Shown here in pieces: positions 46,910 through 57,250 of a DNA stretch of 64,000 bases. How positions within the stretch are numbered: the first letter of the stretch is position 1; each line of letters starts with the position of its first letter. Below the pieces are notes generated by a model that did not search any database, was not told the origin of the DNA, and worked only from the letters and a program-made list of their open reading frames with translations. Made by a program: the position numbers and the translations under genes. Source of the DNA: Kiritimatiellia bacterium (GTDB taxonomy: Bacteria > Verrucomicrobiota > Kiritimatiellia > RFP12 > JAAYLN01); contig JAGCUY010000217.1 of the NCBI GenBank assembly GCA_017962605.1, positions 7,412-71,411 on the forward strand, given 5' to 3'.

Positions 46910-46937
46910 ATAGGCGCAGTTGAACTACTGCGCCTAT
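46910..46937. terminator. Perfect 11-bp hairpin between convergent genes (bidirectional terminator or REP)
   Basis: ataggcgcagt-tgaact-actgcgcctat; no long U-tract. Confidence 0.6.
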
Positions 46938-48628
46938 CTCTGGTTGCCGATGATATGGTCAAGCAAAATGTTGCCGATTTGGCGCTGGTCGATGCGTCCC
47001 ATTATCGAGAACGCCAAAAGTTCCGTAGTGGAGACAGACGTCTCGAATATGAATTCGCCATCCTTGCGCGATACGCGCCAAACTAGGCCGCTGCCGTAGC
47101 GCGGAAGCTGGCGGCAAATGGGCTCCATTCCTGGCATGCCCTGGAGAATCGAAACGAAGGTCTGTGTTGGGCGGAGTTCCCCAGCCCCCATGAGGGTCTC
47201 ACCGTCGGAGAGTTGCGGAAGCGATTTTGCGAGTTCGCCGACGCTGCGCCTTATGCGCGATGACTGCGGGAGGAACAGCAGCTTTTCAATCGCGCCGTAT
47301 GGGCCGGATACGACTACCAGGTTGTTGCCGTCTATCGCAAACTCGATGCAGTTTAACTGGGCGAGGAGGATGAGCGCGCTGGCGGCGAAGTCCTCGGCGG
47401 TTTCAGGACTGGCCTGCCGCTTCGCGTTGTAGCCGTAGATGATATGGCGGCCGACGGAACGCGGCAGGCGGAAGGTTGCCTGCTTTGTGTCCGTTCCCCA
47501 TGGAAGGAGAGTGCGAAGTGCGGCGGCGGCGCCAATTGGGTTGGACAAGGTGAAGGTCTGAACACGCGTAGGAGGTTCGCCAGGCGCGATATTGAACCCT
47601 GCTGCCGATTCTCCGGTGAGGAATGGGGCCAGGGCGTCCTCGGCGGCTTTATCCCCGAGGCCGGGGAACAGACGCCGGCCTACGAAGAAGGAGTAGGCGG
47701 AAGAGCCGTAGCGGGTGTAAACGGATGAGGGGACAAATGGCGCGAAGGGGGCAAGGGCGCCATCAGAGGCGCAGTATGCGTCTCGCGGCAAGGCAGCAAG
47801 CGGCGCCCCCGCAACCTCGATTTTGGAGGGGTGGGCTTCGGTCTTCCCTGCCGTAGGCGAAAGCCGCGCCGCCAAATCCCATGAATGGATGCTCGGGGTA
47901 AGTGAAATGTGCAGTGAGTCCAGCGGCGTGAGGAGATCGCGTAGCGAGTGAAGCAGCTTGACGACGGAAGCGGTGTCTTCGGTGGTCTCTGCGCCAGCGA
48001 GGAGCTTGTCCAGAACATCGCCCATGAGCTCCGCGTCGAAGAATGCGGACAGCGTGGCGCCTTCGCGGACGTCGGGAATATTGGGGATGGTGCCGGCGCG
48101 CCAGTGGCGGGCGATCCACTGCAGGCTCTCGCGGCTGCTGGCGACGTATGCGGTGTCGCGCATGATTATCACGGACAGTGCAACCAGATTCGCCTCATCG
48201 CGAGGCTCGGAGCAATACAGGACGCTTCTGCCGCTGATCTTGCCGTAAGCTTCGGAGAGGGATTGCCTCAGGCGATTCTCGCCATTGACCGGCGAAAGGG
48301 GGATGATGGCGACCTGGTCTGGCAACTCCTGCCCCTCCGGCGGCGAGACGAGGATAACGGTTGCGCGGCGTGTAAGGTCGGCGCAGTCGAGCGACGGCAG
48401 CAAGGTAAGCCAGGTGACAATGGCGTTGGCGATATCTGAGGCGCCTTCCACGCCAATGCCGGACAGACCGTCGTAGATGCCCTGCCGCGCATTGGTGATG
48501 GAGGAGAAGGTGACGACCGCGACCTGCCCCTTGCCGGCGGCGCCCTCTTCTATGCGTGTTGAGCCCACGTATGCGGCGTGGGCGGATGCGGCGCACAGCG
48601 CCAAAGCCATGGCCAGTGCTCTTTTCAT
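46934..48628 (-). CDS. Secreted hypothetical protein
   Basis: Signal peptide MKRALAMALALCAASAHA; 564-aa ORF overlapping the upstream stop. Confidence 0.75.
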   Translation of the reverse strand: MKRALAMALALCAASAHAAYVGSTRIEEGAAGKGQVAVVTFSSITNARQGIYDGLSGIGVEGASDIANAIVTWLTLLPSLDCADLTRRATVILVSPPEGQELPDQVAIIPLSPVNGENRLRQSLSEAYGKISGRSVLYCSEPRDEANLVALSVIIMRDTAYVASSRESLQWIARHWRAGTIPNIPDVREGATLSAFFDAELMGDVLDKLLAGAETTEDTASVVKLLHSLRDLLTPLDSLHISLTPSIHSWDLAARLSPTAGKTEAHPSKIEVAGAPLAALPRDAYCASDGALAPFAPFVPSSVYTRYGSSAYSFFVGRRLFPGLGDKAAEDALAPFLTGESAAGFNIAPGEPPTRVQTFTLSNPIGAAAALRTLLPWGTDTKQATFRLPRSVGRHIIYGYNAKRQASPETAEDFAASALILLAQLNCIEFAIDGNNLVVVSGPYGAIEKLLFLPQSSRIRRSVGELAKSLPQLSDGETLMGAGELRPTQTFVSILQGMPGMEPICRQLPRYGSGLVWRVSRKDGEFIFETSVSTTELLAFSIMGRIDQRQIGNILLDHIIGNQR

Positions 48629-49185
48629 CTAAACCCCCGGTTGGAAACGATTGCCTCGATAATGGCGTCAACGACACCTGTTAGTTCCGGATTATTGGTG
48701 CGGACACGGAATGGCTTGCCATTGAGTTTGGCGGTGATGGTGACTATGCCGGCGGAGGCGTCGGAGCGGTCCTTGTCGTCAAGCTTCTTCATGCGCTTAT
48801 GCTCCTTGGTAAGGCCGGCATCGACAAACAGCTGCATCATCCAACGGGCCTGCGCCGGGGTGACGCCCAACTTCTCCTCGATGATGTCGCCCCATGCCGG
48901 GTTGTCGACGTCCTGGGAGAATGAGTCGAACACCAGCGGGGAACGGCCCTGCCGGAACTCCACCGAGCCGACGCCGATGATTTCAAGGCGGCATGGCGCG
49001 GTGCCGTTTGCCGGATGGTATCGGGCGGTGAGCCAGTTGAGCTGCGAATCGTTAACCTCAGTGAGCGGCTTCTCGCTGAAAAGCGCGCAGCCGGAGAGGG
49101 CTAGGGCTGCGGCGCAAAGCGCCACAGCCATGGCAGACGCAGTCTGGAAGACTGCGCCAAAAGGACGGTGAAGACGGCGCATCAT
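48625..49185 (-). CDS. Hypothetical lipoprotein
   Basis: Lipobox LALSGC; lies 1 nt after the uxaC stop. Confidence 0.7.
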   Translation of the reverse strand: MMRRLHRPFGAVFQTASAMAVALCAAALALSGCALFSEKPLTEVNDSQLNWLTARYHPANGTAPCRLEIIGVGSVEFRQGRSPLVFDSFSQDVDNPAWGDIIEEKLGVTPAQARWMMQLFVDAGLTKEHKRMKKLDDKDRSDASAGIVTITAKLNGKPFRVRTNNPELTGVVDAIIEAIVSNRGFR

Positions 49186-49186
49186 G

Positions 49187-50608
49187 CTATTCCCCGAACC
49201 TAAAGAAGCGGGCGGCGTTGTGGTGGCAGATGTCCTCGACGATGGAACCCGCCCAGTCGAGGTCGTGCGTCATGTCGCCGGCGTCGATTTCCGAGCCGAT
49301 GATGTCGCAGAGGACACGCCGGAAGTATTCGTGGCGCGGGTAGGAGAGGAATGAGCGGCTGTCCGTGAGCATTCCCACGAAGTTGGCGAGGAGGCCAAGT
49401 TCGGAGAGGGCGTCGATCTGGGCGCGCATTCCGTGCTTCTGGTCGTTGAACCACCAGCCGGAGCCAAGTTGTATCTTGCCGGCGTCGGGGCCGCGCTGGA
49501 AGGCCCCCATCATCACGGCGACGAGGTAGTTGTCGCGAGGGTTGAGGTTGTAGATGATGGTGCGCGGGAGGTTGTCGTCGCGGTCGAGGGCATCGAGGAG
49601 GCGCGCCAGGCCGGCCGCAACGGGGAGGTCGTGGATCACGTCGGCGCCGGCGTCGGGGCCGATTGCCTCGAATAGGCGCGTGCTGACGTTGCGCATCGGA
49701 CCATAGTGGATCTGCCATGTCCAGTCGGAGTCGGCGTCGAGGTGGCCGAGTTCGACAAGCGTTCCGAGGCGGAAGGCATTGACCTCCTCAGGTGTGGCGC
49801 GGCCACCGGTGCGCACCTTGCGGAAGATGGCGTTGATGGCTGATGGCGCCGGTATCTCGACATCTGGAACCGTCTCGATGCCGTAATCGGAAAGGCGGCA
49901 TCCGTTGGCGGCGAAGAACTCATGGCGCTCGGCCAGTGCGTTCATCATGTCGTCGAAGTCGCAGCAAGGGGCGTTCGTGACGGCCTCCAGACCGTCGAGC
50001 CACTTGTTCCAGGCTGACGGGCGGTCAATGGCGAGGGCCTTGTCTGGACGCCATGCAGGCAGCACTTTTACGGGGAAGCCGGACTCGCGGATCGCGGCAT
50101 GCCATTCAAGGGTGTCGGTTGGATCGTCGGTTGTGCAGACGACCTCGACATTGCTGCGGGTGATGCAGGAGCGCGCGGAGAAGCCGCCGGAGGCAAGTGC
50201 GGCGCGGGTCTGCTCCCAGATGTGGTCGGCAGTGTCCGGCGAAAGGACTTCGCGTATGCCGAAGAAGCGCGCCAGTTCGAGGTGCGACCAGTCGAACATC
50301 GGGTTGCGCATGAGGCGCGGCATGGTTGCGGCGAAGGCGTCGAACTTCTCGCGTGGCGAGGCGTCGCCGGTGATGAGGCGCTCGTCAATGCCGTTGGAAC
50401 GCATGCAGCGCCACTTGTAGTGGTCGCCGCCCAGCCAGAGGTCGGCCAAGTTGTTCCAGCGGGTGTCCTCGGCTATCTCGCGAGGAGGAAGGTGGCAGTG
50501 GAAGTCGATGATGGGAAGCTTCTCCGCATGCTCATGGTAGAGGTAGCGGGCGCTTTCGCCGTGGAGAAGGAAGTCATCGGTAATGTAGAAGGGGGTATCT
50601 TTATTCAT
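49187..50608 (-). CDS. uxaC: Glucuronate (uronate) isomerase
   Basis: PIIDFHCHL, WL.GDHYKWR, TTDDP, GSGWWFND, GMLTDSRSFLSY.RHEYFRR. Confidence 0.97.
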   Translation of the reverse strand: MNKDTPFYITDDFLLHGESARYLYHEHAEKLPIIDFHCHLPPREIAEDTRWNNLADLWLGGDHYKWRCMRSNGIDERLITGDASPREKFDAFAATMPRLMRNPMFDWSHLELARFFGIREVLSPDTADHIWEQTRAALASGGFSARSCITRSNVEVVCTTDDPTDTLEWHAAIRESGFPVKVLPAWRPDKALAIDRPSAWNKWLDGLEAVTNAPCCDFDDMMNALAERHEFFAANGCRLSDYGIETVPDVEIPAPSAINAIFRKVRTGGRATPEEVNAFRLGTLVELGHLDADSDWTWQIHYGPMRNVSTRLFEAIGPDAGADVIHDLPVAAGLARLLDALDRDDNLPRTIIYNLNPRDNYLVAVMMGAFQRGPDAGKIQLGSGWWFNDQKHGMRAQIDALSELGLLANFVGMLTDSRSFLSYPRHEYFRRVLCDIIGSEIDAGDMTHDLDWAGSIVEDICHHNAARFFRFGE

Positions 50609-50673
50609 AGCGGAAGTATTATACCAAAAGCGGGAAAAACACTACACAATCCCTCCCGCATTCTCGCTTATGG

Positions 50674-50696
50674 GAAGTGACGGGCTTCGTCACTTC
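50674..50696. repeat. Palindrome at the left edge of the island
   Basis: gaagtgacg-ggctt-cgtcacttc, just after the HNH stop. Confidence 0.65.
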
Positions 50697-50705
50697 AGCG
50701 ACCTT

Positions 50706-51248
50706 CTACTTAGCGCCCTTGCGGCGGTTGCAGTCGCGGCATAGCATCTGGCAGTTGTCGGGGATGGTGCGGCCGCCCTGCCTCCACGGCGTGATGTGGT
50801 CGGCCTCCATCTCCTCCAGCTCGAAGTGCTCCCGGCAGATGGCGCACAGGCCATGCTGACGCTCGTATGCCTCCAGCCTCGTGTTCCCGTCGAACGCGCG
50901 GATGTTGAGGTGCCGCTCGTCGCCGTCCAGCACGTATTCCCAGATGCCGCTCTTCCGCTGCACGTCGCTGTCCGCCACAAGCCGCGCTATTTCAACTTCC
51001 AGCATCTTGGCGTCGAGCGGCGCTTCCGCGAACTTGTTGTAGAGGCACCCCCAATCCACGTGTTTCATCGGCGGCCGCGTCTTCGGGAATGTCGCCTTGA
51101 CCCAGCTGATGACTTTCTGGAAGTAGAGCCAGAGCGGCGTCGCGTTTGGGTCGTGCTGGTGGAGCGCCTTGTAGAAGCGCGGGTCGGCGCCGTCGCTGTA
51201 GCCGTCCACGAGGTCGCGGATTCTGATTTCGTGCAGTTCGATTTTCAT
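50706..51248 (-). CDS. HNH endonuclease; internally deleted derivative of a DUF262(GmrSD-like)-HNH protein
   Basis: C-terminal CAIC..MEADHITPW..GG.T..DNCQMLCRDCNRRK. N-terminal MKIELHEIRIRDLVDGY is joined almost directly to HQHDPNA..LWLYFQ. Confidence 0.75.
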   Translation of the reverse strand: MKIELHEIRIRDLVDGYSDGADPRFYKALHQHDPNATPLWLYFQKVISWVKATFPKTRPPMKHVDWGCLYNKFAEAPLDAKMLEVEIARLVADSDVQRKSGIWEYVLDGDERHLNIRAFDGNTRLEAYERQHGLCAICREHFELEEMEADHITPWRQGGRTIPDNCQMLCRDCNRRKGAK

Positions 51249-51272
51249 GGATGGTGCCTTACATCGGGGTTG

Positions 51273-51857
51273 CTACTTGACGAAAAAGACTGAGCCATCG
51301 CGGTGGGCGGCGACTGCCACTGCTGCGGCATTGGGTAGGCCGCGCACGGTTTCACGGACGCAATTCCAGAGGTCGATGCGCCCGACGGAGGCAAGAAGCG
51401 GCAATGCGTCGGCGAGAATCGGGACATTGTTCTCAAGAATTGACAGCGAGGCCGCCTCGCCTTTGGAGTCGATGCGGACGAACACCGAAAGCGTCTTTTG
51501 GGGATTCGGCGAAGAAGGTGACTCCGCAAGCGTCTCGCCAGTAATCGGCGATGACGCGATCCATTCGCCTGCATCCCATCCAATCTTGAAGGAGGCCTCT
51601 GGCCAATCGAGCGCGTCGTCGAAGTTGGAGTCGCGGCCAAAGACAAGTTCGACGCAGTTCGTAGGTGTGGCCATGAAAGTGATGGTCGCGGAAAGAGTGC
51701 CAGGGGCTTCTATTGAAATGTCGGCGGAAGCGGTCGCCTCGCCGTCGGCAAAAGCAGTCGGCGTGGGTTGGGGAATGCTGACAGTCGCCGCACTGCTTGA
51801 AGAGAATGATGCGTAAAGCGCTGTAGCCAAAACGCTCGTTATGAATTGATTCCCCAT
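51273..51857 (-). CDS. Secreted hypothetical protein (accessory gene of the toxin-like cassette)
   Basis: SD GGAGG, signal peptide, FGRDSNFDDALD..E loop, GWDAGEW, C-terminus DGSVFFVK. Confidence 0.75.
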   Translation of the reverse strand: MGNQFITSVLATALYASFSSSSAATVSIPQPTPTAFADGEATASADISIEAPGTLSATITFMATPTNCVELVFGRDSNFDDALDWPEASFKIGWDAGEWIASSPITGETLAESPSSPNPQKTLSVFVRIDSKGEAASLSILENNVPILADALPLLASVGRIDLWNCVRETVRGLPNAAAVAVAAHRDGSVFFVK

Positions 51858-51894
51858 GGCACCTCCGGTTTGCTAATTGCAGCAAAAACAACGG

Positions 51895-52551
51895 TCATAA
51901 TTGCGGCACAGAATTCGTAAGTTGCTCCATTGCGTATTCAAGCGAAAACCGCTCCCAGTTATCCAGAAATCTTCTCTCTTCTCTCGAATCGCTGTCGAAT
52001 ACGCTTTGAAAGTAGTCGGCAATTTGATTGTCATTGGTGGGGAACAAGTTCATTGTCCTGATAAACAAATTGCTCACGCCTGGTTTGTCTGAATTGATGA
52101 ACGCATACCTGTAAAGAGGAGTTGTAGCCGCCTCATAGACTTCCCTGATGAAAGCAGCGCTGCACCTGTTTGTGTCTACTTGGCAAATGTCGATGAGTCC
52201 GTCCCACACGCCCAAGAGAGCATTGGTTCCTGCAAAGCCAACTATGTTCGGGATGATAAGCCTCATCGTTTCATTCGTCCAGTAGTAGTCCCAATCTGCC
52301 ACAAGCGATGACCAGTCGTTGGACATTGCGGCGATTGTGTTGCAAAAAGGTTCTGTTCCGCATATGCCCGACGGGAAGCCCCACTCGGCGATTTGACTTA
52401 AATTGCAGTATTGTGAAGTTGTGCAAAAGTAACTTAATTCGTCAAGAGTGGCTCTCGTTTGAGTTTGATCACCCTTGCAAGGTATGACTGTTGTTGAAGC
52501 AGCCATAAAGAGGATTGTGCGACATGTCGCATTTACTGTGCTAATTTTCAT
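51895..52551 (-). CDS. Exported hypothetical protein, candidate immunity protein
   Basis: ATG 52551 with a GGAG SD overlaps the last 11 nt of the upstream gene. Signal-like N-terminus; markedly AT-rich. Confidence 0.7.
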   Translation of the reverse strand: MKISTVNATCRTILFMAASTTVIPCKGDQTQTRATLDELSYFCTTSQYCNLSQIAEWGFPSGICGTEPFCNTIAAMSNDWSSLVADWDYYWTNETMRLIIPNIVGFAGTNALLGVWDGLIDICQVDTNRCSAAFIREVYEAATTPLYRYAFINSDKPGVSNLFIRTMNLFPTNDNQIADYFQSVFDSDSREERRFLDNWERFSLEYAMEQLTNSVPQL

Positions 52552-55470
52552 CGTTACTCCATTTATTAAGGCCGGAAGACCCGTCAAGAAACATAACAAA
52601 TTGCCTATTGACATTTAGTGTTCCTGCGGCGATTCCCCATCCATCATAGTCAACAATTCCGCAATGACCTGATCCGCCAGAATTTGGATGCGCTATGACA
52701 AATCCTGGCTCAAGTGCTACAGTGGCAGGAGCGTGAATCCACGGCGCTATGTTTTCGCCTGATGCCCAGTCATTGGCTACTGGCGGATACTTGCGCCATG
52801 GCGTAGTTTGCGTCGAAGCGACAGGGAGACCTGATTGTGAAATGCAGCATGCCACAAAAGCGTTGCATTTCCAGTCGCCGTTCTTGACGCTCCGAAATCC
52901 GAAGTAAGACGGCAAGAAACAATCGCGAGCGAAAGCCGTGCTGCCCAGATGCGACAAAGCGGTGTTCCGCAATGCGATCTGCCATTGCTCGGACGCAACA
53001 CCGATGTGGTCGTAGCCGCCCACATGGTAGTTGCTTTCCGGCGGGTCGAAGTCGTTTCGCGACGCGATTTTGTAGTATGTCTCCCGCGTCGCCCCGCAAA
53101 GTGTCATTTCCACCTTGACGCGATATATCCCGCCCGTCACCATTGTTGGCGAGAACGTGTCTCCCGGGATGTCGTCGCCTATCTTGACCCAGCCCTCGTG
53201 GCCTCCATTCCTCGTCCTCCGCCCGACATGCCAATCGCATTCGGCATCGTCAAGGTTCGCACCGGCGGGGACGCAAACCGCCGACATCGGCACCTCGCTC
53301 CCGGCGAGGACCACAAGTCCCGACGCCGGCGCGCCGGGCACCGCCACGCGGTCGAGCGACACCGCCGTCGAGTTGGCAGTGCAATACGCATTGCCCCCGC
53401 CATCTCGGACAAGCTCCGCCTCCAGCACGATGTCCCCGGATACCGACGACACCGTCGCCGCGTGTATGACCCCAGTTGCACAGAACTCATGGCTCTCGCC
53501 GTCAAGCGCGAACGTCCACGGCAACCCGCCGATAAGCGACTGCGACAGGCTCGCGTCCGACACAGTTATCTCGCCCGCCGCCGGCTCGTCGGCCCAGTAA
53601 GTGACCACGACGTCGGCGTCTTCCCCGGCGAAGAACGCTGGCGGCAACGAGATGCCGACGAGCGTCAGCGGCGCGGTTCGCCTCCCCCTGTGGATTAGCG
53701 CTTCGGAGGTGGCCGACCAGTCACCTATGCGGCATGTGAGCGTTATCCTTCGCGAGGCCCAGTCCACGTCGTCACCGTAGCCATCGAAAAACCACGCCGC
53801 GCCAGTCGTCCGCGAGTTGGGGGAGTATATCTGCACGTAGTCGGCGTCGTTCTCGTCGTCGTCCACGAAAGACCATTCCCATGAATCGACGACCGCCGGG
53901 TCCGCCCCGACGCAGACGCCCGTGAACTCGTGGATTTCGCCAGACCCGTAGCAGTACTGGTCCCCGGGGGCGACCGCCACGCCGGCCGGCCTCAGCGTGA
54001 CCGTCCCGGAAACCCCGCCCCCATTGAGCGAAACCAGCGCGTCGGATCTAGACGCCGAAAAACTGGCCGCGCATGGCGGGGTGACTCCGAACTGGTATTC
54101 CGGCCCGACGTTCAGCAGAAACCCGTATGTCCCGTTCTCGTTCGCCACAACCCGCTGCCCGCCGACGCTTACCAGCACTTCCGGCGGACCCTGCACGTCG
54201 CCGCCATATTGCCCGACGCCATCAAGCTCGACATAGAAGACGTAGCGCCTTTCCCCGTCGTCGCCATCAGTCTGCGACAGGAGGTAGTCGTCGTAGCCCA
54301 TCGAGATTATCTCGGACGAATTCGTGAAGGTGGCGGCAATCCACGCGCTGGACTGCCCGAAGGCGGCGCCGCACGAAACAAGTGGCGCCTGATCGAAGCC
54401 GTCCGCAAGACCGTCGCCGTCGGTGTCGAAATCGAACGGGTCTGTTCCCGAAACAATCTCCGCACCGTCGCCTAGTCCGTCGCCGTCGGTGTCGGCCACG
54501 AGGGGGTCGGTGCCGAGGAGCATCAGTTCGTCGTAGTCGGTCAGGCCGTCTTCGTCCGTGTCGCCGGTCCCGTCCCCGTATGCGGACACGTCGGCGAAGT
54601 AGATCGACGAGGCGCGTGAGATCGCGCCGGTGACGGAAGAGGTCTCGCCGGGAGGCACGGAGGCGCCGGGGCCGCCAATTGAGAACGTGGCATTTGTGAG
54701 CGCGTCAATCGCGTCTGTGTCGCCGTAGCGGTAGATGAAGTCGCCGTTCCGCAGAAACTCAATCTGGAACGAGAGCGGCTGCGCCGTGTCGCGGTCAAGC
54801 AGCGCGCATTCCCATGCGACGATGGTTGAGGCGGGGGACGACGCCGTCCAGCAGCGGGACGTGACGCCGCACTCCGCCCACTTGCCCTCGGCGACGAACG
54901 ACATCGGGGCGTGGAACGGTTCGAGATAGGCGGCATCTCCATTGCCTAGAATCGCCTTGGCGCGGCCGTGCGAAAAAACCATCAGGCGGCGCACATCGTT
55001 CGTGCCGATACGCACCGGCGCATTCGTAGGCGGCGTGACTGCGAAGTAGTCGTCGAATACGCCCGTCGCCAGCCATGACGCCTTTGCAACGGCGTTGCTC
55101 GTCGTGTCAAATAAGGCCCACACATGGTCTGCGCCGTTGATGCATCGACTGGCCACCGCCGCAGGATTAGTGACGCAGGCGAAGCCCAGCGCCTGTTCCG
55201 CCTCGGTGAACGAGCGCGGCTCCTGCGGGTCGCCGGCGGCGGGGACGCCTCGCGGCGCGGGTCGCCGCCACCGCCGCCGTCGCCGCTATCGCCCTTGCCT
55301 CCGCCGTATATCACCGCCGCGGCGAAGAAGGCGCAGACGGCGACGCGCATGTATGGGGGTTCGCGCGAAAGCGCGGCGCGCAATACGGACAGTCCCCGCA
55401 ATCGCCAGACAACAGGCGCCGCCATTCCGGCAAACACGAGAAAGACCACTATTTCAAGCGTCCATCTCAT
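52541..55470 (-). pseudogene. Large exported protein (~976 aa if repaired) with DxDxDG (TSP3-like) repeats and a C-terminal NlpC/P60-CHAP-like domain; split by one frameshift near 55260
   Basis: ORF 54982..55470 supplies the SD-led start and hydrophobic leader. The frame of ORF 52541..55156 stays open up to a TAG near 55287, and adding one C to CCC (55259-55261) fuses them. Motifs DTDEDGLTD, DTDGDGLGD, DTDGDGLAD; KCNAFV and GHCGIV. Confidence 0.75.
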
Positions 55471-55522
55471 CTTCGGCCTTCCTTGGCGCCCCCCGTTGCA
55501 ACCCTCTACAAGATGGGTGCAT

Positions 55523-55546
55523 GTGAAGCGGCTAGGGCCGCTTCAC
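55523..55546. repeat. Palindrome at the right edge of the island, just after the serA stop (REP-like or terminator)
   Basis: gtgaagcggc-tagg-gccgcttcac. Confidence 0.7.
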
Positions 55547-55547
55547 G

Positions 55548-57125
55548 CTAGATTTCGATGCAAAGCGCGGACTTAGCCTTCACCTCGGCCGAAATCTCGG
55601 CGAGCGTGGCGTCGTCCACCGGCTGGCTGAGCTTCAGGATCACGAGCGAACGGCCCGTCTTCGGGTCATGCGGATTGCGCATGTCCTCGATGTTGATGCC
55701 CTTGTCGGCAATGCGGCGGGAAATGGCCGCGATCACGCCGGGACGGTCGTCATAGATGCAGCAGAGAATCGGGCCCTGCGGCTCGAAGTAGAGGCCATCG
55801 AACTCGTTGATGCGGGCGACCATCAGGCGGCTCTCGGCGACTGTGCCGCGGAGGCTGATGCGCTTCAGGCTGTTCGCACCGTCCTCGACGAGGACGTCGA
55901 TCGTCATGGAGTTCACATAGTGCTTGGCGTTGTCGGCCTTGCGGTTGGTGTATTTGATGCCCGCGTCTTCGAGGAACCGGATGGCGGCCTTGCGGTCGTT
56001 GAGGCGGTCGAAGTTGTCGCAGACGCCTGCCAACACCGGCACAATCAGCCAGTCGGCGAAGGGCTCCAGTTTGCCGTAGAAGCTCGTCTCGATCTCGCGG
56101 ATCGGGTTGGCCTCGCCGGAGAGGAGGCGCGCCATGTGGGCGATTGTCCAGGCAAGGTCGCAGTAGGAGCGGTCGAGGCCGTCGGGGATGTCGCGGTTCA
56201 CGATGCAGGCGGTGACGCCGCGCTCATCGAGGTCGATCAGCTCCTCGGCGGCGCGCTTGGCCGCCGTGCGGTTGGCTTCCTTCGTGGAGGCGCCGAGGTG
56301 CGGCATCATGATGTCGGCCACGTCGGCGATGCTCTTGGGGCCTTCGATGTCCTTGGGGTAAACGTCGTTGAGGTAGCGGAGCTTCTTCACCGGCTTGGCG
56401 GCGCGGAGGGCGTCCTCGTCCACGATGCCGGCGCGGGCGCAGTTCACAATCGTTGCGCCGGTCTTCATGCAGGAGAGCAGCTCGGTGGAGAGCATCTTGC
56501 GGGTGGAGTCGGTCTCCGGGATGTGGAGGGTGACGATGTCGGACTCCGCGAAGAGCTCCTCAAGGGGCATCGGCTCGATGCCGGAGGCGCGGGCCTTGTC
56601 GCCGGGAACGAGGGGGTCGTAGCCGAGGATGCGGCAGTCGAAACCCTTCAGGCGCTTCGCGACGAGGCGGCCAATGTTGCCGAGGCCGACGATGCCGACG
56701 GTCTTGCCGGAGAGTTCGGTGCCCATGAAGTTCTTCTTCTCCCACTTGCCGGCGCGGACCGAGGGGTCGGCCGCCACGACATGGCGCATGTCTGCCAGGA
56801 TGAGGGCGATCACCTCTTCGGCGACCGCGTTGGCGTTGGCGCCAGGGGTGTTCATCACGTCAACGCCGCGCTTGCGGGCGTATTTGGTGTCGATGGTGTT
56901 GTAGCCGGCGCCGGCGCGGACAATCACCTTAAGCTGCGGAAGGGCGTCGATCGTCGCCGCCGTCACTTGCTCGCTGCGCACGATTAGAGCATAAGAGTCG
57001 GAGTTGGCCGCGACAAGCTCGTCAAAGGGGGTGGTGGAATCCTGCACCACGGAGTAGTTACCGTTATCGGTGAGGATCTTGGCGGCGATTCCGTCAAGCT
57101 TGGTGGGAATGAGGACTTTTTTCAT
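55548..57125 (-). CDS. serA: D-3-phosphoglycerate dehydrogenase with C-terminal ACT domain
   Basis: LIVRS, RAGAG..TID, VMNTPG.N..AVAE, GLGNIG, NCARAG, PHLGAST.EA, DRPGVI. Start at MKKVLIP. Confidence 0.92.
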   Translation of the reverse strand: MKKVLIPTKLDGIAAKILTDNGNYSVVQDSTTPFDELVAANSDSYALIVRSEQVTAATIDALPQLKVIVRAGAGYNTIDTKYARKRGVDVMNTPGANANAVAEEVIALILADMRHVVAADPSVRAGKWEKKNFMGTELSGKTVGIVGLGNIGRLVAKRLKGFDCRILGYDPLVPGDKARASGIEPMPLEELFAESDIVTLHIPETDSTRKMLSTELLSCMKTGATIVNCARAGIVDEDALRAAKPVKKLRYLNDVYPKDIEGPKSIADVADIMMPHLGASTKEANRTAAKRAAEELIDLDERGVTACIVNRDIPDGLDRSYCDLAWTIAHMARLLSGEANPIREIETSFYGKLEPFADWLIVPVLAGVCDNFDRLNDRKAAIRFLEDAGIKYTNRKADNAKHYVNSMTIDVLVEDGANSLKRISLRGTVAESRLMVARINEFDGLYFEPQGPILCCIYDDRPGVIAAISRRIADKGINIEDMRNPHDPKTGRSLVILKLSQPVDDATLAEISAEVKAKSALCIEI

Positions 57126-57250
57126 TGCTTTATTAACCGCGCGGGATTTGGTATCATTGATTCCCGACGGCGGATTCCGCCGGGAACCGCATCGCCGAAA
57201 TCCCACGGCGACGCTTAAAAATTGGAACATCTATTCTACATTTTGACGCC

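What the first reader, a model, noticed from the sequence alone, without database searches (positions are those of the whole stretch)
50674..55546. Candidate new polymorphic toxin system: exported DxDxDG-repeat carrier with a peptidoglycan-hydrolase-like tip, overlapping immunity gene and accessory gene
Seen: an island between uxaC and serA, bounded by two palindromes, with four co-oriented genes. The large protein has two hydrophobic segments ending in VIYGGGK, a Gly linker, a beta domain (TIVAWE...SFQIEFLRNGDFIYRY), three DxDxDG Ca-binding repeats, Ig-like beta regions, and a tip with KCNAFV...P.ANDW...PG.VIA...GHCGIV. GC falls visibly in the tip and in the next gene. Known: a Cys...His pair in this spacing is the papain-like NlpC/P60-CHAP fold used by cell-wall amidase effectors, and carrier + low-GC tip + overlapping small gene is the hallmark of polymorphic toxins. 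The carrier shows no Rhs/YD, haemagglutinin, VgrG, PAAR, LXG, MafB or MuF features. Inference: an undescribed delivery class in this lineage.
Basis: partly seen in the sequence, partly recalled or inferred. Interest (0 to 1): 0.88.

Follow-up and report, generated by a model that had tools for sequence, protein, structure and literature searches.

The report
Swappable cell-wall toxin in gut bacterium
A little-studied gut bacterium (Kiritimatiellia) encodes an exported protein whose swappable tip looks like a cell-wall-cutting enzyme, paired with an antidote gene and with a lineage-specific delivery module that the same bacteria also put on other toxins.

Summary
Four co-oriented minus-strand genes lie between serA and uxaC. 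The large protein is split over two frames in the window, but contigs of four public runs carry one extra base at 55256 that joins them.

- **Tip:** its last ~150 residues model as an NlpC/P60-CHAP fold (pLDDT 93.7; Z 10.7), with an invariant Cys and a conserved His.
- **Immunity candidate:** the next gene encodes an exported protein of no known family. It follows the tip in 29 of 31 related loci and is predicted to bind it (0.69 against 0.05).
- **Swapping:** another strain has replaced the tip's end plus this gene at this very locus. Two copies in a congener diverge at the same point.
- **Delivery module:** the N-terminal leader, beta domain and TSP3 repeats, together with the lectin-fold accessory gene, also head Rhs-repeat and arginine-deiminase proteins across the order.
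- **No T6SS:** no T6SS sheath or Hcp gene was found.

Best reading: a Sec-exported polymorphic antibacterial toxin with MafA/MafB-like logic. It is a new variant of a known kind. The delivery step is inferred.

The parts
55523..55546 (.). Perfect 10-nt-arm hairpin directly behind the serA stop; upper edge of the block. Terminator-like.
   Evidence: the repeat finder; sequence.
55257..55470 (-). 5' part of the large gene: start codon, hydrophobic segment 1, Arg-rich loop, hydrophobic segment 2, conserved [YH]-G-G-x-K motif and Gly-rich linker. Read as an extended Sec signal or leader.
   Evidence: Alignment of 14 leaders has G56 and K59 nearly invariant. The same layout is seen in G001, G019, G003 and the G000 paralog.
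55256..55257 (-). Place where the window lacks one base relative to public assemblies. With that base the leader frame and the 871-codon frame are one ORF of about 976 codons.
   Evidence: read-laying table 4: extra base in X1, X2, X5 and X6 (one contig each, full depth of that contig). Frames.
54563..55156 (-). Beta-rich N-terminal domain (TIVAWE ... SFQIEFLRNGDFIYRY). It is the conserved core of the N-terminal module and has no Pfam family.
   Evidence: Matches residues ~14-260 of many large proteins of the order. Local HMM hits. Atlas lead to NIDO was not confirmed by Pfam (0 of 15).
54416..54562 (-). Three calcium-binding TSP3 repeats (DxDxDG).
   Evidence: Pfam TSP3_bac 2e-12, 3 stretches; coordinates.
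52994..54415 (-). Middle carrier region, beta-rich, with no family assigned. Its last ~100 residues precede the tip on other carrier types too.
   Evidence: No Pfam hit. 41-42% identity to G002 copies over residues 504-867. Alignment A1 columns 30-130.
52550..52993 (-). C-terminal NlpC/P60-CHAP-fold domain (the tip). Catalytic Cys codon at 52865-52867 and His codon at 52664-52666.
   Evidence: AF2 pLDDT 93.7; structure matches; conservation; Pfam CHAP in 14 of 32 family members; coordinates.
51895..52551 (-). Candidate immunity gene: 218 aa from the MK start, with a signal peptide and a Cys at residue 25. No known family. Overlaps the toxin's stop by 11 nt.
   Evidence: no family. Downstream of the tip in 29 of 31 loci. 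Alignment A3. Predicted complex.
51793..52831 (-). Low-GC segment (0.474) that another strain has replaced. It covers the tip from about its residue 105 onward, the whole immunity gene and the first ~22 codons of the accessory gene.
   Evidence: read-laying table 5: X5 record 17 has 948 other letters in place of these 1039. X6 record 25 also stops matching at 51792. GC.
51273..51857 (-). Accessory gene (194 aa): signal peptide, concanavalin-A-like/galectin-like beta-sandwich, EF-hand-like DxNxDGxLxxxE loop. Constant partner of the N-terminal module.
   Evidence: Alignment A4; AF2 pLDDT 84.9; fold matches at Z 10-11; adjacency; restricted to the order in a phylum sample.
50706..51248 (-). HNH endonuclease gene (180 aa).
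   Evidence: Pfam HNH 6.1e-15. No tblastn hit in 35 related loci. Contig breaks and raised depth in metagenomes (tables 2, 7, 8).
50674..50696 (.). Perfect 9-nt-arm hairpin behind the HNH gene; lower edge of the block. Terminator-like.
   Evidence: the repeat finder.

Best explanation
This is a polymorphic antibacterial toxin locus of a gut Kiritimatiellia bacterium. The large protein (about 976 residues once the missing base is counted) is exported by an extended Sec-type leader. An order-specific N-terminal module follows the leader: a beta domain and calcium-binding TSP3 repeats. This module works with the exported lectin-fold accessory protein to hold the protein on the cell surface or pass it across the outer membrane. 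The C-terminal NlpC/P60-CHAP cysteine peptidase cuts peptidoglycan peptides of competitors. The downstream exported protein binds over the catalytic cleft. It protects the producer's own wall while the toxin crosses its periplasm, and protects against toxin from sister cells. The tip-plus-immunity cassette is exchanged by recombination between strains and gene copies, while the leader module and accessory gene stay constant. Shown here: the fold and catalytic residues, the gene linkages, the cassette replacement, and the shared N-terminal module. Inferred: the substrate, toxicity, neutralisation, and above all the route across the outer membrane.
For: **Tip fold.** The AF2 model has pLDDT 93.7 and pTM 0.90. 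A second look with VIA-align at Foldseek's matches gave Z 10.7 (8er5_B, rmsd 2.8, 107 aligned), 10.6 (7cfl_B) and 10.1 (Tae3, 4hz9_A). 49 chains reached Z >= 8, and the rows listed at Z >= 8 are all NlpC/P60 or CHAP. Cys93 sits at the start of helix 93-103 and His160 at the start of strand 160-164. Cys is invariant and His is kept in at least 90% of 32 sequences. Pfam CHAP matches 14 of 32 members at E <= 1, best 1.3e-5. The family has 307 cluster representatives at E <= 1e-3. In the 150 best listed, the domain lies at the C-terminal end of proteins of 93-1887 aa.

**Immunity.** A homolog of the downstream gene follows the tip in 29 of 31 loci by an HMM built from these loci. Single-sequence tblastn finds it in 22 of 31. 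All 22 aligned members start with a hydrophobic signal-like segment. Predicted complex: median score 0.69, best of 3 controls 0.05. That mark was reached by 58 of 80 solved complexes and 2 of 110 mismatched pairs. Partner pLDDT was at least 70, but run agreement was 0% because one of the three runs scored 0.00. The interface includes residues 87-91 and 152-160, next to Cys93 and His160.

**Polymorphism.** In run X5 a contig is identical over 53058-53912. It has 26 differences and 4 gaps over 52832-53087, carries 948 other letters in place of 51793-52831, and matches again over 51232-51792. In X6 the match ends at the same 51792. Two copies in congener G002 are 97-100% identical over the first 400 nt, 66-79% in the tip, 39-70% in the immunity gene and unrelated after it. 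GC is 0.474 in the replaced segment against 0.652 in the carrier.

**Constant module.** Residues ~14-260 match N-termini of open frames of 332-2604 aa across the order, with 15 listed matches in G019 alone. Of 18 such proteins scanned, 6 have RHS repeats and 1 has a PAD domain. The own-genome paralog on C202 has an RHS repeat. The accessory gene lies directly upstream at 11 distinct places that lack the tip, and beside 9 of 31 tip loci plus the window. It occurs in 14 of 301 genomes sampled from the phylum. All 14 belong to families that one search lists as the window's own order.

**Secretion systems.** No TssC or Hcp was found in G000, which is 92.67% complete.

**Gene integrity.** The gene is intact in four public assemblies.
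Against: No activity, toxicity or secretion has been measured. The window's own tip does not reach any Pfam model even at E <= 10. Foldseek's best E-value is only 5.9e-3. One of the three complex runs gave 0.00, and the alignments were my own, so the calibration holds only roughly. Contigs show presence, not absence, and I could not see the 948 replacing letters, so it is not shown that they encode another tip end and immunity gene. The accessory gene is not beside every N-module gene: G019 has 5 copies against 15 listed N-module matches. Many loci are cut by contig ends. A peptidoglycan hydrolase cannot by itself cross a Gram-negative target's outer membrane, and no translocation domain was identified. 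The window as deposited carries a frameshift.
Confidence: 0.7

Rival explanations
1. The protein is a secreted or surface-bound bacteriolytic or wall-remodelling enzyme with a cognate inhibitor, such as an autolysin or a prey-lysing exoenzyme used for nutrition. It is not a weapon in competition between relatives. The downstream protein only guards the producer's own wall.
For: The best structural matches are housekeeping NlpC/P60 endopeptidases and autolysins (8er5, 7cfl, LytE 8i2d, CwlO 8wt3, MepS 8xup). Enzyme-inhibitor pairs such as LytE-IseA are among them. The protein has a Sec-type leader and surface-type domains such as TSP3. No injection machine was found.
Against: The cassette is replaced between strains at one locus and diverges between copies, with a low-GC signature. 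The same leader module heads Rhs-repeat proteins, which are classical toxin carriers. The immunity family diverges fast, at 13-21% identity to the window's copy.
Confidence: 0.13
2. It is a polymorphic toxin, but the tip's substrate is not peptidoglycan. It could be a lipid (phospholipase or acyltransferase type NlpC/P60) or a protein (deamidase or protease).
For: The NlpC/P60 fold also holds lipid-targeting toxins (abstract of PMC11996579). The window's tip is too divergent for any Pfam model. Substrate cannot be read from the fold.
Against: The catalytic order is Cys then His, whereas the lipid-targeting Tox-Act1 is described as permuted (abstract). All listed matches at Z >= 8 act on or bind peptidoglycan or are CHAP lysins. 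The immunity candidate is exported, which fits a periplasmic target.
Confidence: 0.08
3. It is cargo of a contact-dependent injection machine (T6SS or another) rather than a Sec-exported surface or secreted toxin.
For: The fold resembles the T6SS amidases Tae3, Tse1 and Tae4 with their periplasmic immunity partners. Rhs proteins with the same N-terminal module exist, and many Rhs toxins elsewhere use T6SS (established knowledge).
Against: No TssC (PF05943) or Hcp (PF05638) was found in G000, although the genome is only 92.67% complete. Pfam finds no PAAR or VgrG in the protein. The N-terminus looks like a signal sequence with a basic loop before the second hydrophobic segment. The accessory protein is itself exported.
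Confidence: 0.05
4. The window copy is a dead gene: the frameshift is real in this strain and the locus is a decaying relic.
For: The window's letters split the gene into two frames.
Against: Contigs of four runs from four studies, including the best holder X1 (0.96 of words), all carry the extra base at the full depth of the covering contig. The long frame has no other stop. The site is a GC-rich repetitive stretch where assemblies err.
Confidence: 0.04

Closest known systems
Maf polymorphic toxin system of Neisseria (MafA accessory outer-membrane protein, MafB toxin with conserved MafB-N domain, MafI immunity)
   Same: The logic is the same: signal peptide, then a lineage-restricted conserved N-terminal domain, then a polymorphic C-terminal toxin, then a downstream immunity gene. 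A conserved, non-polymorphic exported accessory gene sits next to the toxin gene, and there are several copies per genome (PMC3482391 section 37, read whole). MafA is needed to pass MafB across the outer membrane (abstract of PMC7738311).
   Different: There is no sequence relation. Pfam and NCBIfam give no hit for the N-terminal domain or for the accessory protein. The accessory protein here is a ~190-aa lectin-fold beta-sandwich. The module includes TSP3 repeats and an extra hydrophobic segment before the signal sequence. The lineage is Kiritimatiellia. The accessory gene can lie upstream of the toxin or behind the immunity gene.
T6SS peptidoglycan amidase effector-immunity pairs (Tae1/Tse1-Tsi1, Tae3-Tai3, Tae4-Tai4)
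   Same: The effector has an NlpC/P60-type fold with a Cys-His centre (Tae3 4hz9_A at Z 10.1, 108 of 118 residues aligned; Tse1 at Z 8.4). An exported immunity protein is encoded next to it and is predicted to cover the active site.
   Different: Those effectors are small stand-alone proteins fired by a T6SS. Here the domain is the tip of a ~976-residue Sec-leader protein, in a genome where no TssC or Hcp was found. Identity is 13-21%. The immunity family is unrelated to any Pfam family.
Tox-NlpC/P60 of polymorphic toxins (Zhang et al. 2012)
   Same: It is a papain-like C, H, D peptidase at the C-terminus of polymorphic toxins and is predicted to degrade target cell walls (PMC3482391, passages).
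   Different: That table lists it for Bacteroidetes and delta-proteobacteria, with T6SS, PVC or TcdB/TcaC export, RHS repeats and no immunity protein. Here the lineage, the carrier and the leader differ, and a linked immunity family exists. I could not see that paper's additional files, which hold the alignments, so identity of the two toxin families is untested.
Rhs/YD-repeat toxins
   Same: In the same genome (C202) and order, the identical type of leader module plus accessory gene heads Rhs-repeat proteins of about 2000-2540 aa.
   Different: The window's protein has no RHS repeat, so there is no Rhs shell to encapsulate the toxin.
Thrombospondin signature domain (TSP3 repeats packed on an L-type-lectin-like C-terminal domain)
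   Same: TSP3 calcium repeats are in the large protein, and the partner has a lectin-like beta-sandwich fold. Thrombospondin-1's C-terminal domain (2rhp_A) is among the matches at Z 9.8.
   Different: Here the two parts are separate polypeptides. The match is tied with many other ConA-like folds. That the repeats wrap the lectin domain in thrombospondin is recalled knowledge, and no binding was tested here.

Membership tests
NlpC/P60-CHAP papain-like cysteine peptidases | Papain-like alpha+beta fold of the catalytic domain | tested here: met
   AF2 pLDDT 93.7. VIA-align Z 10.7, rmsd 2.8, 107 aligned for 8er5_B. 49 chains at Z >= 8; the listed rows at Z >= 8 are all of this superfamily. Foldseek's top rows are the same families, but its best E-value is 5.9e-3.
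NlpC/P60-CHAP papain-like cysteine peptidases | Catalytic Cys at the N-terminus of a helix, followed in sequence by a His on a beta strand, plus a third polar residue | tested here: met
   Cys93 is invariant in 32 of 32 sequences. His160, Asp165 and Asp167 are kept in at least 90%. The helix starts at residue 93 and the strand at 160 in the model. Which Asp is the third residue was not resolved.
NlpC/P60-CHAP papain-like cysteine peptidases | Match to a curated sequence model (Pfam CHAP PF05257 or NLPC_P60) | tested here: inconclusive
   The window's tip gives no Pfam hit at E <= 10. 14 of 32 family members hit CHAP at E <= 1, best 1.3e-5. The PDB profile search gave only 4xcm_A at E 1.3, over the Cys motif.
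NlpC/P60-CHAP papain-like cysteine peptidases | Hydrolysis of peptidoglycan peptide or amide bonds | not testable with these tools
   Needs an enzyme assay.
Polymorphic toxin systems (sensu Zhang et al. 2012) | Conserved N-terminal trafficking region joined to alternative C-terminal toxin domains | tested here: met
   The N-module (residues ~14-260) sits on proteins ending in Rhs regions, a PAD domain or this tip. Conversely, the tip sits on carriers with TSP3, Calx-beta, RCC1, Laminin_G_3, fn3 or Big_1 domains.
Polymorphic toxin systems (sensu Zhang et al. 2012) | Immunity gene immediately downstream that varies together with the toxin domain | tested here: met
   It follows the tip in 29 of 31 loci. 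It diverges together with the tip in G002. It lies within the segment replaced in X5. The predicted complex scored 0.69 against a best control of 0.05.
Polymorphic toxin systems (sensu Zhang et al. 2012) | Displacement of the C-terminal cassette by recombination | tested here: met
   An X5 contig replaces 51793-52831 with 948 other letters, between flanks with 0 differences (53058-53912) and 22 differences in 561 nt (51232-51792). The content of the replacing letters was not seen.
Polymorphic toxin systems (sensu Zhang et al. 2012) | Toxicity to cells lacking the cognate immunity protein | not testable with these tools
   Needs expression and competition assays.
Maf system (MafA/MafB/MafI) | MafB-N (DUF1020) domain after the signal peptide | tested here: not met
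   Only TSP3_bac is found in the large protein. No family was found in 15 N-modules at E <= 1 apart from chance-level rows.
Maf system (MafA/MafB/MafI) | MafA-family accessory lipoprotein | tested here: not met
   The accessory protein has no Pfam or NCBIfam hit. The Atlas holds only unnamed clusters. Its fold is a ConA-like beta-sandwich. Whether those libraries hold a MafA model was not checked.
Maf system (MafA/MafB/MafI) | Gene logic: constant accessory gene, constant N-domain, polymorphic C-terminus, immunity gene | tested here: met
   compared with PMC3482391 section 37.
T6SS amidase effectors (Tae/Tai) | A T6SS in the producer | tested here: not met
   PF05943 (TssC) and PF05638 (Hcp) were not found in G000. 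The genome is 92.67% complete, so absence is not proven. The control E. coli genome gave a match with both models.
Rhs/YD toxins | RHS/YD repeats in the protein | tested here: not met
   There is no RHS_repeat hit in the window's protein. Paralogs with the same N-module do have them.

The most novel reading that the evidence does not exclude
The leader, beta domain and TSP3 repeats, together with the exported lectin-fold partner, form a dedicated and so far undescribed outer-membrane passage or surface-display pathway of Kiritimatiellales. It serves a whole arsenal: Rhs toxins, an arginine deiminase and this amidase. It does so without a T6SS. The calcium-loaded TSP3 repeats dock on the lectin-fold partner in trans, as they do in cis in thrombospondin.
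Probability: 0.3. Interest if true: 0.8.

Novelty: new variant of a known kind. Interest (0 to 1): 0.63.

Why it matters
Kiritimatiellia are common but barely studied gut and sediment bacteria, and nothing is in print about how they fight neighbours. My search for 'Kiritimatiellota' with 'polymorphic toxin' found 0 papers. 'Kiritimatiell' with 'Rhs' and 'toxin' found 1 paper, which does not describe such a system.

This locus provides four things:
- a new toxin family of the NlpC/P60-CHAP fold with 307 sequence clusters and no Pfam model;
- a new exported immunity family;
- a constant N-terminal module plus a lectin-fold partner that also heads Rhs proteins in genomes where no T6SS was found;
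- a natural cassette swap caught at one locus.

It makes an open question directly testable: how large Rhs and non-Rhs toxins leave a Gram-negative cell without T5SS, T6SS or Tc machinery. The test needs only two genes and a reporter.

Tried and rejected
- **Pfam on the window's proteins:** at E <= 10 there was nothing for the tip or the accessory protein, and only a chance-level row for the immunity candidate (v110, E 0.088). NCBIfam gave nothing for the immunity candidate or the accessory protein.
- **NCBIfam on the large protein:** only TSP3-repeat similarity to CglD/MtsC/MtsD, far under their cut-offs.
- **PDB sequence profile of the tip:** one hit at E 1.3.
- **The search for related loci:** An 8-sequence alignment worked.
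- **NIDO lead:** the ESM Atlas feature search pointed to NIDO for the N-terminal beta domain (score 0.95, recognition 2128, below the usual 2300). Pfam NIDO was hit in 0 of 15 N-modules at E <= 1, so I do not file it as NIDO.
- **Accessory protein versus Laminin_G_3:** a profile comparison of the accessory family with the Laminin_G_3-bearing tip carrier P0083 showed no relation (probability 0.6%). The cis fusion of TSP3 and a ConA-like domain there is only a fold-level parallel.
- **Island as a simple insertion between serA and uxaC:** in G001, G003 and G007 the two genes lie on different contigs, and serA was not found in G002 or G004. The sequence fetched beside serA (G001, G003, G007) and beside uxaC (G001, G002, G003) holds none of the four components. 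The block is therefore not at that place in relatives, but a clean empty site could not be shown.
- **HNH gene as part of the system:** rejected.
- **Coverage holes:** X5 and X6 have no cover over about 51936-52770 (table 2). That alone proves nothing; only the X5 joint and the shared match end at 51792 are used.

Full report
**What is there**

All genes of the block lie on the minus strand. In order they are:
- serA (55548-57230);
- a large gene;
- a 218-aa gene (51895-52551; the longest ORF runs from 52614);
- a 194-aa gene (51273-51857);
- a 180-aa HNH gene (50706-51248);
- uxaC (49187-50608).

serA, uxaC and HNH are confirmed by Pfam. Each sits right behind a stop codon, so both look like ordinary terminator hairpins. 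GC is 0.652 in the carrier, 0.52 in the last 170 codons of the large gene, 0.46 in the next gene, 0.581 in the third gene and 0.62 in the whole window. The window is part of a 231-contig, 4.18-Mb assembly that is 92.67% complete. Record titles of related loci place the lineage in Kiritimatiellia, mostly from gut metagenome assemblies.

**The large gene is split in the window but not in nature**

The ORF that starts at 55470 encodes two hydrophobic segments, the motif VIYGGGK and a Gly run, and then turns into Arg-rich nonsense. The 871-codon ORF (55156-52541) is in another frame and stays open back to 55285. Relatives are single ORFs with the same N-terminal layout: G001, 842 aa, and P0001, 929 aa, 65% identical in the tip.

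I laid Logan contigs of four runs from four studies on 50600-55600. All four carry one extra base behind 55256, each in one contig at the full depth of that contig (table 4). That base joins the two frames into about 976 codons. The best holder, X1 (0.96 of the words), may be the source sample, and it also has the base. I therefore treat the frameshift as an error or rare variant of this assembly. Contigs cannot exclude a minority variant.

**The tip**

The last 200 residues found 307 cluster representatives at E <= 1e-3 among 1.84 billion proteins, 190 of them at E <= 1e-10. In the 150 best listed, the match lies at the C-terminal end of proteins of 93-1887 aa. In an alignment of 32 of them, Cys93 is invariant. 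K92, N94, F96, V97, P120, N124, W126, H160, G162, I163, D165 and D167 are kept in at least 90%, and P121 and A123 are invariant.

The window's tip reaches no Pfam model at E <= 10, but 14 of the 32 members hit CHAP at E <= 1, best 1.3e-5. The AlphaFold model has pLDDT 93.7 and pTM 0.90. A helix starts at Cys93 and a strand starts at His160.

Foldseek's best rows are all NlpC/P60 or CHAP wall hydrolases, headed by the T6SS amidase Tae3, but its best E-value is only 5.9e-3. VIA-align on those rows gives:
- Z 10.7 for 8er5_B (rmsd 2.8, 107 aligned);
- Z 10.6 for 7cfl_B;
- Z 10.1 for Tae3, 4hz9_A (108 of 118 residues);
- Z 8.4 for Tse1;
- 49 chains at Z >= 8.

The substrate is inferred from the relatives.

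**The downstream gene**

It has no Pfam or NCBIfam family. In 31 loci found with the tip in species-representative genomes, single-sequence tblastn finds a homolog directly downstream in 22. An HMM iterated on these loci finds it in 29. In two of those 29 (L046, L062) the hit lies in the same open frame as the tip. In L045 the contig ends 27 nt behind the gene. L073, the weakest tip match, has none. L061 has two copies in tandem.

The 22 aligned members all begin with a hydrophobic signal-like segment, and several have a Cys behind it. They are only 13-21% identical to the window's copy.

The complex prediction of tip residues 45-200 with residues 26-218 of this protein gave scores of 0.00, 0.84 and 0.69 in three runs. 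The median is 0.69 and the best of three controls is 0.05. That mark was reached by 58 of 80 solved complexes and 2 of 110 mismatched pairs. The partner's pLDDT was at least 70, and stated run agreement was 0% because of the failed run. My own alignments were used, so the calibration counts hold only roughly.

The confident interface includes residues 87-91, 119-131 and 152-160, which are the loops around Cys93 and His160. This supports binding over the active site but does not show it.

**Polymorphism, seen three ways**

1. *At this very locus in another strain.* In run X5 one contig is identical to the window over 53058-53912. Another has 26 differences and 4 gaps over 52832-53087, then 948 other letters in place of the window's 1039 (51793-52831), then 22 differences over 51232-51792 (tables 5 and 8). 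In X6 a contig also stops matching at 51792. The replaced stretch is the low-GC one (0.474). It holds the tip from about residue 105, the whole downstream gene and the first ~22 codons of the third gene. By my count, 30 of the 38 tip residues in the predicted interface lie in the replaced part. I could not see the replacing letters.
2. *Between two copies in a congener.* G002 has two copies on contigs that both break inside the gene. They are 97-100% identical over the first 400 nt, 66-79% in the tip, 39-70% in the downstream gene and unrelated beyond it.
3. *Across carriers.* The tip sits on carriers with TSP3, Calx-beta, RCC1, Laminin_G_3 plus TSP3, fn3 or Big_1 domains.

**The constant part**

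Residues ~14-260 of the 871-aa ORF (the beta domain plus TSP3 repeats) match the N-terminal parts of open frames of 332-2604 aa in 60 of 61 genomes of the order, counting any match. The longer matches that cover the beta domain are listed for many of these genomes, with 15 in G019 alone.

All the full-length examples I read begin with the same leader: hydrophobic segment, basic loop, second hydrophobic segment, then [YH]-G-G/S-x-K. G56 and K59 are nearly invariant. Two sequences lack the first hydrophobic segment. The second segment, with the basic loop before it, therefore looks like the true Sec signal and the first like an extension. This is my inference, because no signal-peptide predictor was available.

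Of 18 such proteins scanned with Pfam:
- 6 have RHS repeats (five in G019, one in congener G003);
- 1 ends in a protein-arginine deiminase domain (G008);
- 5 show only TSP3 repeats;
- 6 show nothing at E <= 1e-4.

The window's own genome has a second member on contig C202, and it has an RHS repeat over the family cut-off.

The third gene of the block belongs with this module, not with the tip. Its homolog lies directly upstream of N-module genes at 11 distinct places that have no tip. These include C202 of the same genome and the Rhs protein of G003. Among the 31 tip loci it lies just upstream of the large gene in 5 and behind the downstream gene in 4, as it does in the window. Many loci are cut by contig ends, so absences there say little. 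In G019 there are 5 copies against 15 listed N-module matches, so it is not one-to-one.

In a sample of 301 genomes of the phylum the family was found in 14. All 14 belong to families that one search lists as the window's own order.

The protein has a signal peptide, a conserved FADTEVSTN stretch and an EF-hand-like DxNxDGxLxxxE loop. Its model (pLDDT 84.9) is a concanavalin-A-like beta-sandwich. Matches include GH32 C-terminal domains, galectins, L-type lectins and calnexin at Z 10-11.4. The first row (1y4w_A, Z 12.6) has rmsd 7.6. The thrombospondin-1 lectin-like domain scores Z 9.8. The ESM Atlas holds only unnamed clusters for it.

**How it most likely works**

- *Shown:* a Cys-His NlpC/P60-fold tip; a linked, exported, co-diverging partner that is predicted to bind over the active site; cassette replacement; and a constant leader module with a constant exported lectin-fold partner, shared with Rhs proteins.
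- *Inferred:* the protein is exported by Sec. The N-module and the accessory protein anchor it on the surface or pass it over the outer membrane. The tip cuts peptidoglycan of competitors. The downstream protein protects the producer's wall.
- *Secretion machinery:* no T6SS sheath (PF05943) or Hcp (PF05638) gene was found in this 92.67%-complete genome.
- *Main gap:* how a wall hydrolase would reach the periplasm of a Gram-negative target is open. Gram-positive neighbours would need no such step.

**Comparison with what is known**

The closest logic is the Maf system. Zhang et al. 2012 describe lineage-specific N-terminal domains behind signal peptides, with the conserved accessory gene mafA next to each full-length mafB. 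They propose surface anchoring (PMC3482391, section 37 read whole). Arenas et al. 2020 report that MafA is an outer-membrane protein needed for MafB secretion (PMC7738311, abstract only). There is no sequence relation to Maf here.

The same 2012 paper lists a Tox-NlpC/P60 domain for Bacteroidetes and delta-proteobacteria with no immunity protein (passages). I could not see its additional files, so I cannot say whether that family overlaps this one.

The T6SS amidases share the fold and the periplasmic-immunity principle, but not the carrier or the machine. Lipid-targeting NlpC/P60 toxins are described as permuted (PMC11996579, abstract only). Here Cys precedes His.

Literature searches:
- 'Kiritimatiellota' with 'polymorphic toxin': 0 papers.
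- 'Kiritimatiell', 'Rhs' and 'toxin': 1 paper. The passages I read concern a large catabolic protein of another PVC lineage.

**Verdict**

This is a new variant of a known kind: a polymorphic toxin system with a new CHAP-like toxin family, a new immunity family, and an order-specific leader module with a lectin-fold partner that also serves Rhs toxins. Delivery is the untested and most interesting part.

Noticed in passing
window 50706-51248 (-): A 180-aa HNH endonuclease gene lies between the accessory gene and uxaC. Its NCBIfam hits match only the HNH part of the IscB/Cas9d models, far below their cut-offs. It is not found in 35 related loci. In metagenome contigs this stretch shows many contig breaks and raised summed depth, as if it were repeated or mobile.
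   Followed up: partly
window 55276-55471: The leader-coding 5' end of the large gene has two to five times the summed contig depth of the rest of the gene in X2 and X5. Several contigs run on into unrelated sequence at 55471. This would fit several genes in the community sharing this leader at the DNA level.
   Followed up: no
L022 / L064 (G001:C65): The congener's full-length copy (accessory gene, 842-aa toxin, immunity gene) sits in a visibly AT-rich stretch next to a type I restriction enzyme R subunit. This suggests a variable defence/offence island.
   Followed up: no
L061:6597-7870; L046:2-1222; L062:5044-5787: L061 has two immunity homologs in tandem behind the tip. In L046 and L062 the tip and the immunity homolog lie in one open frame, which could be a fusion, a lost stop or an assembly artefact.
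   Followed up: no
L046, L047, L050, L059, L061, L062, L066, L067: Tip loci sit on short contigs of bins labelled Anaerovoracaceae, Gemmiger, Barnesiella and Faecalibacterium, all from one series of gut bins. They carry the same accessory and immunity genes as the Kiritimatiellia loci, so mis-binning seems more likely than transfer to Firmicutes or Bacteroidota.
   Followed up: no
L042:3323-7252 (G008:C128): One N-module protein ends in a protein-arginine deiminase domain (Pfam PAD, 1.1e-24). That is an unusual candidate toxin or effector domain on this carrier.
   Followed up: no
L014:586-1095 and L030:8457-10430 (G019): Open frames with YD/Rhs-like sequence lie beside the large Rhs genes of G019: one just upstream of an N-module gene in L014 and one behind the Rhs gene in L030. 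They may be orphan toxin cassettes.
   Followed up: no
window 46934-49185 (-): Two co-oriented genes downstream of uxaC (564 aa and 186 aa) have signal-peptide-like starts and no Pfam family.
   Followed up: no
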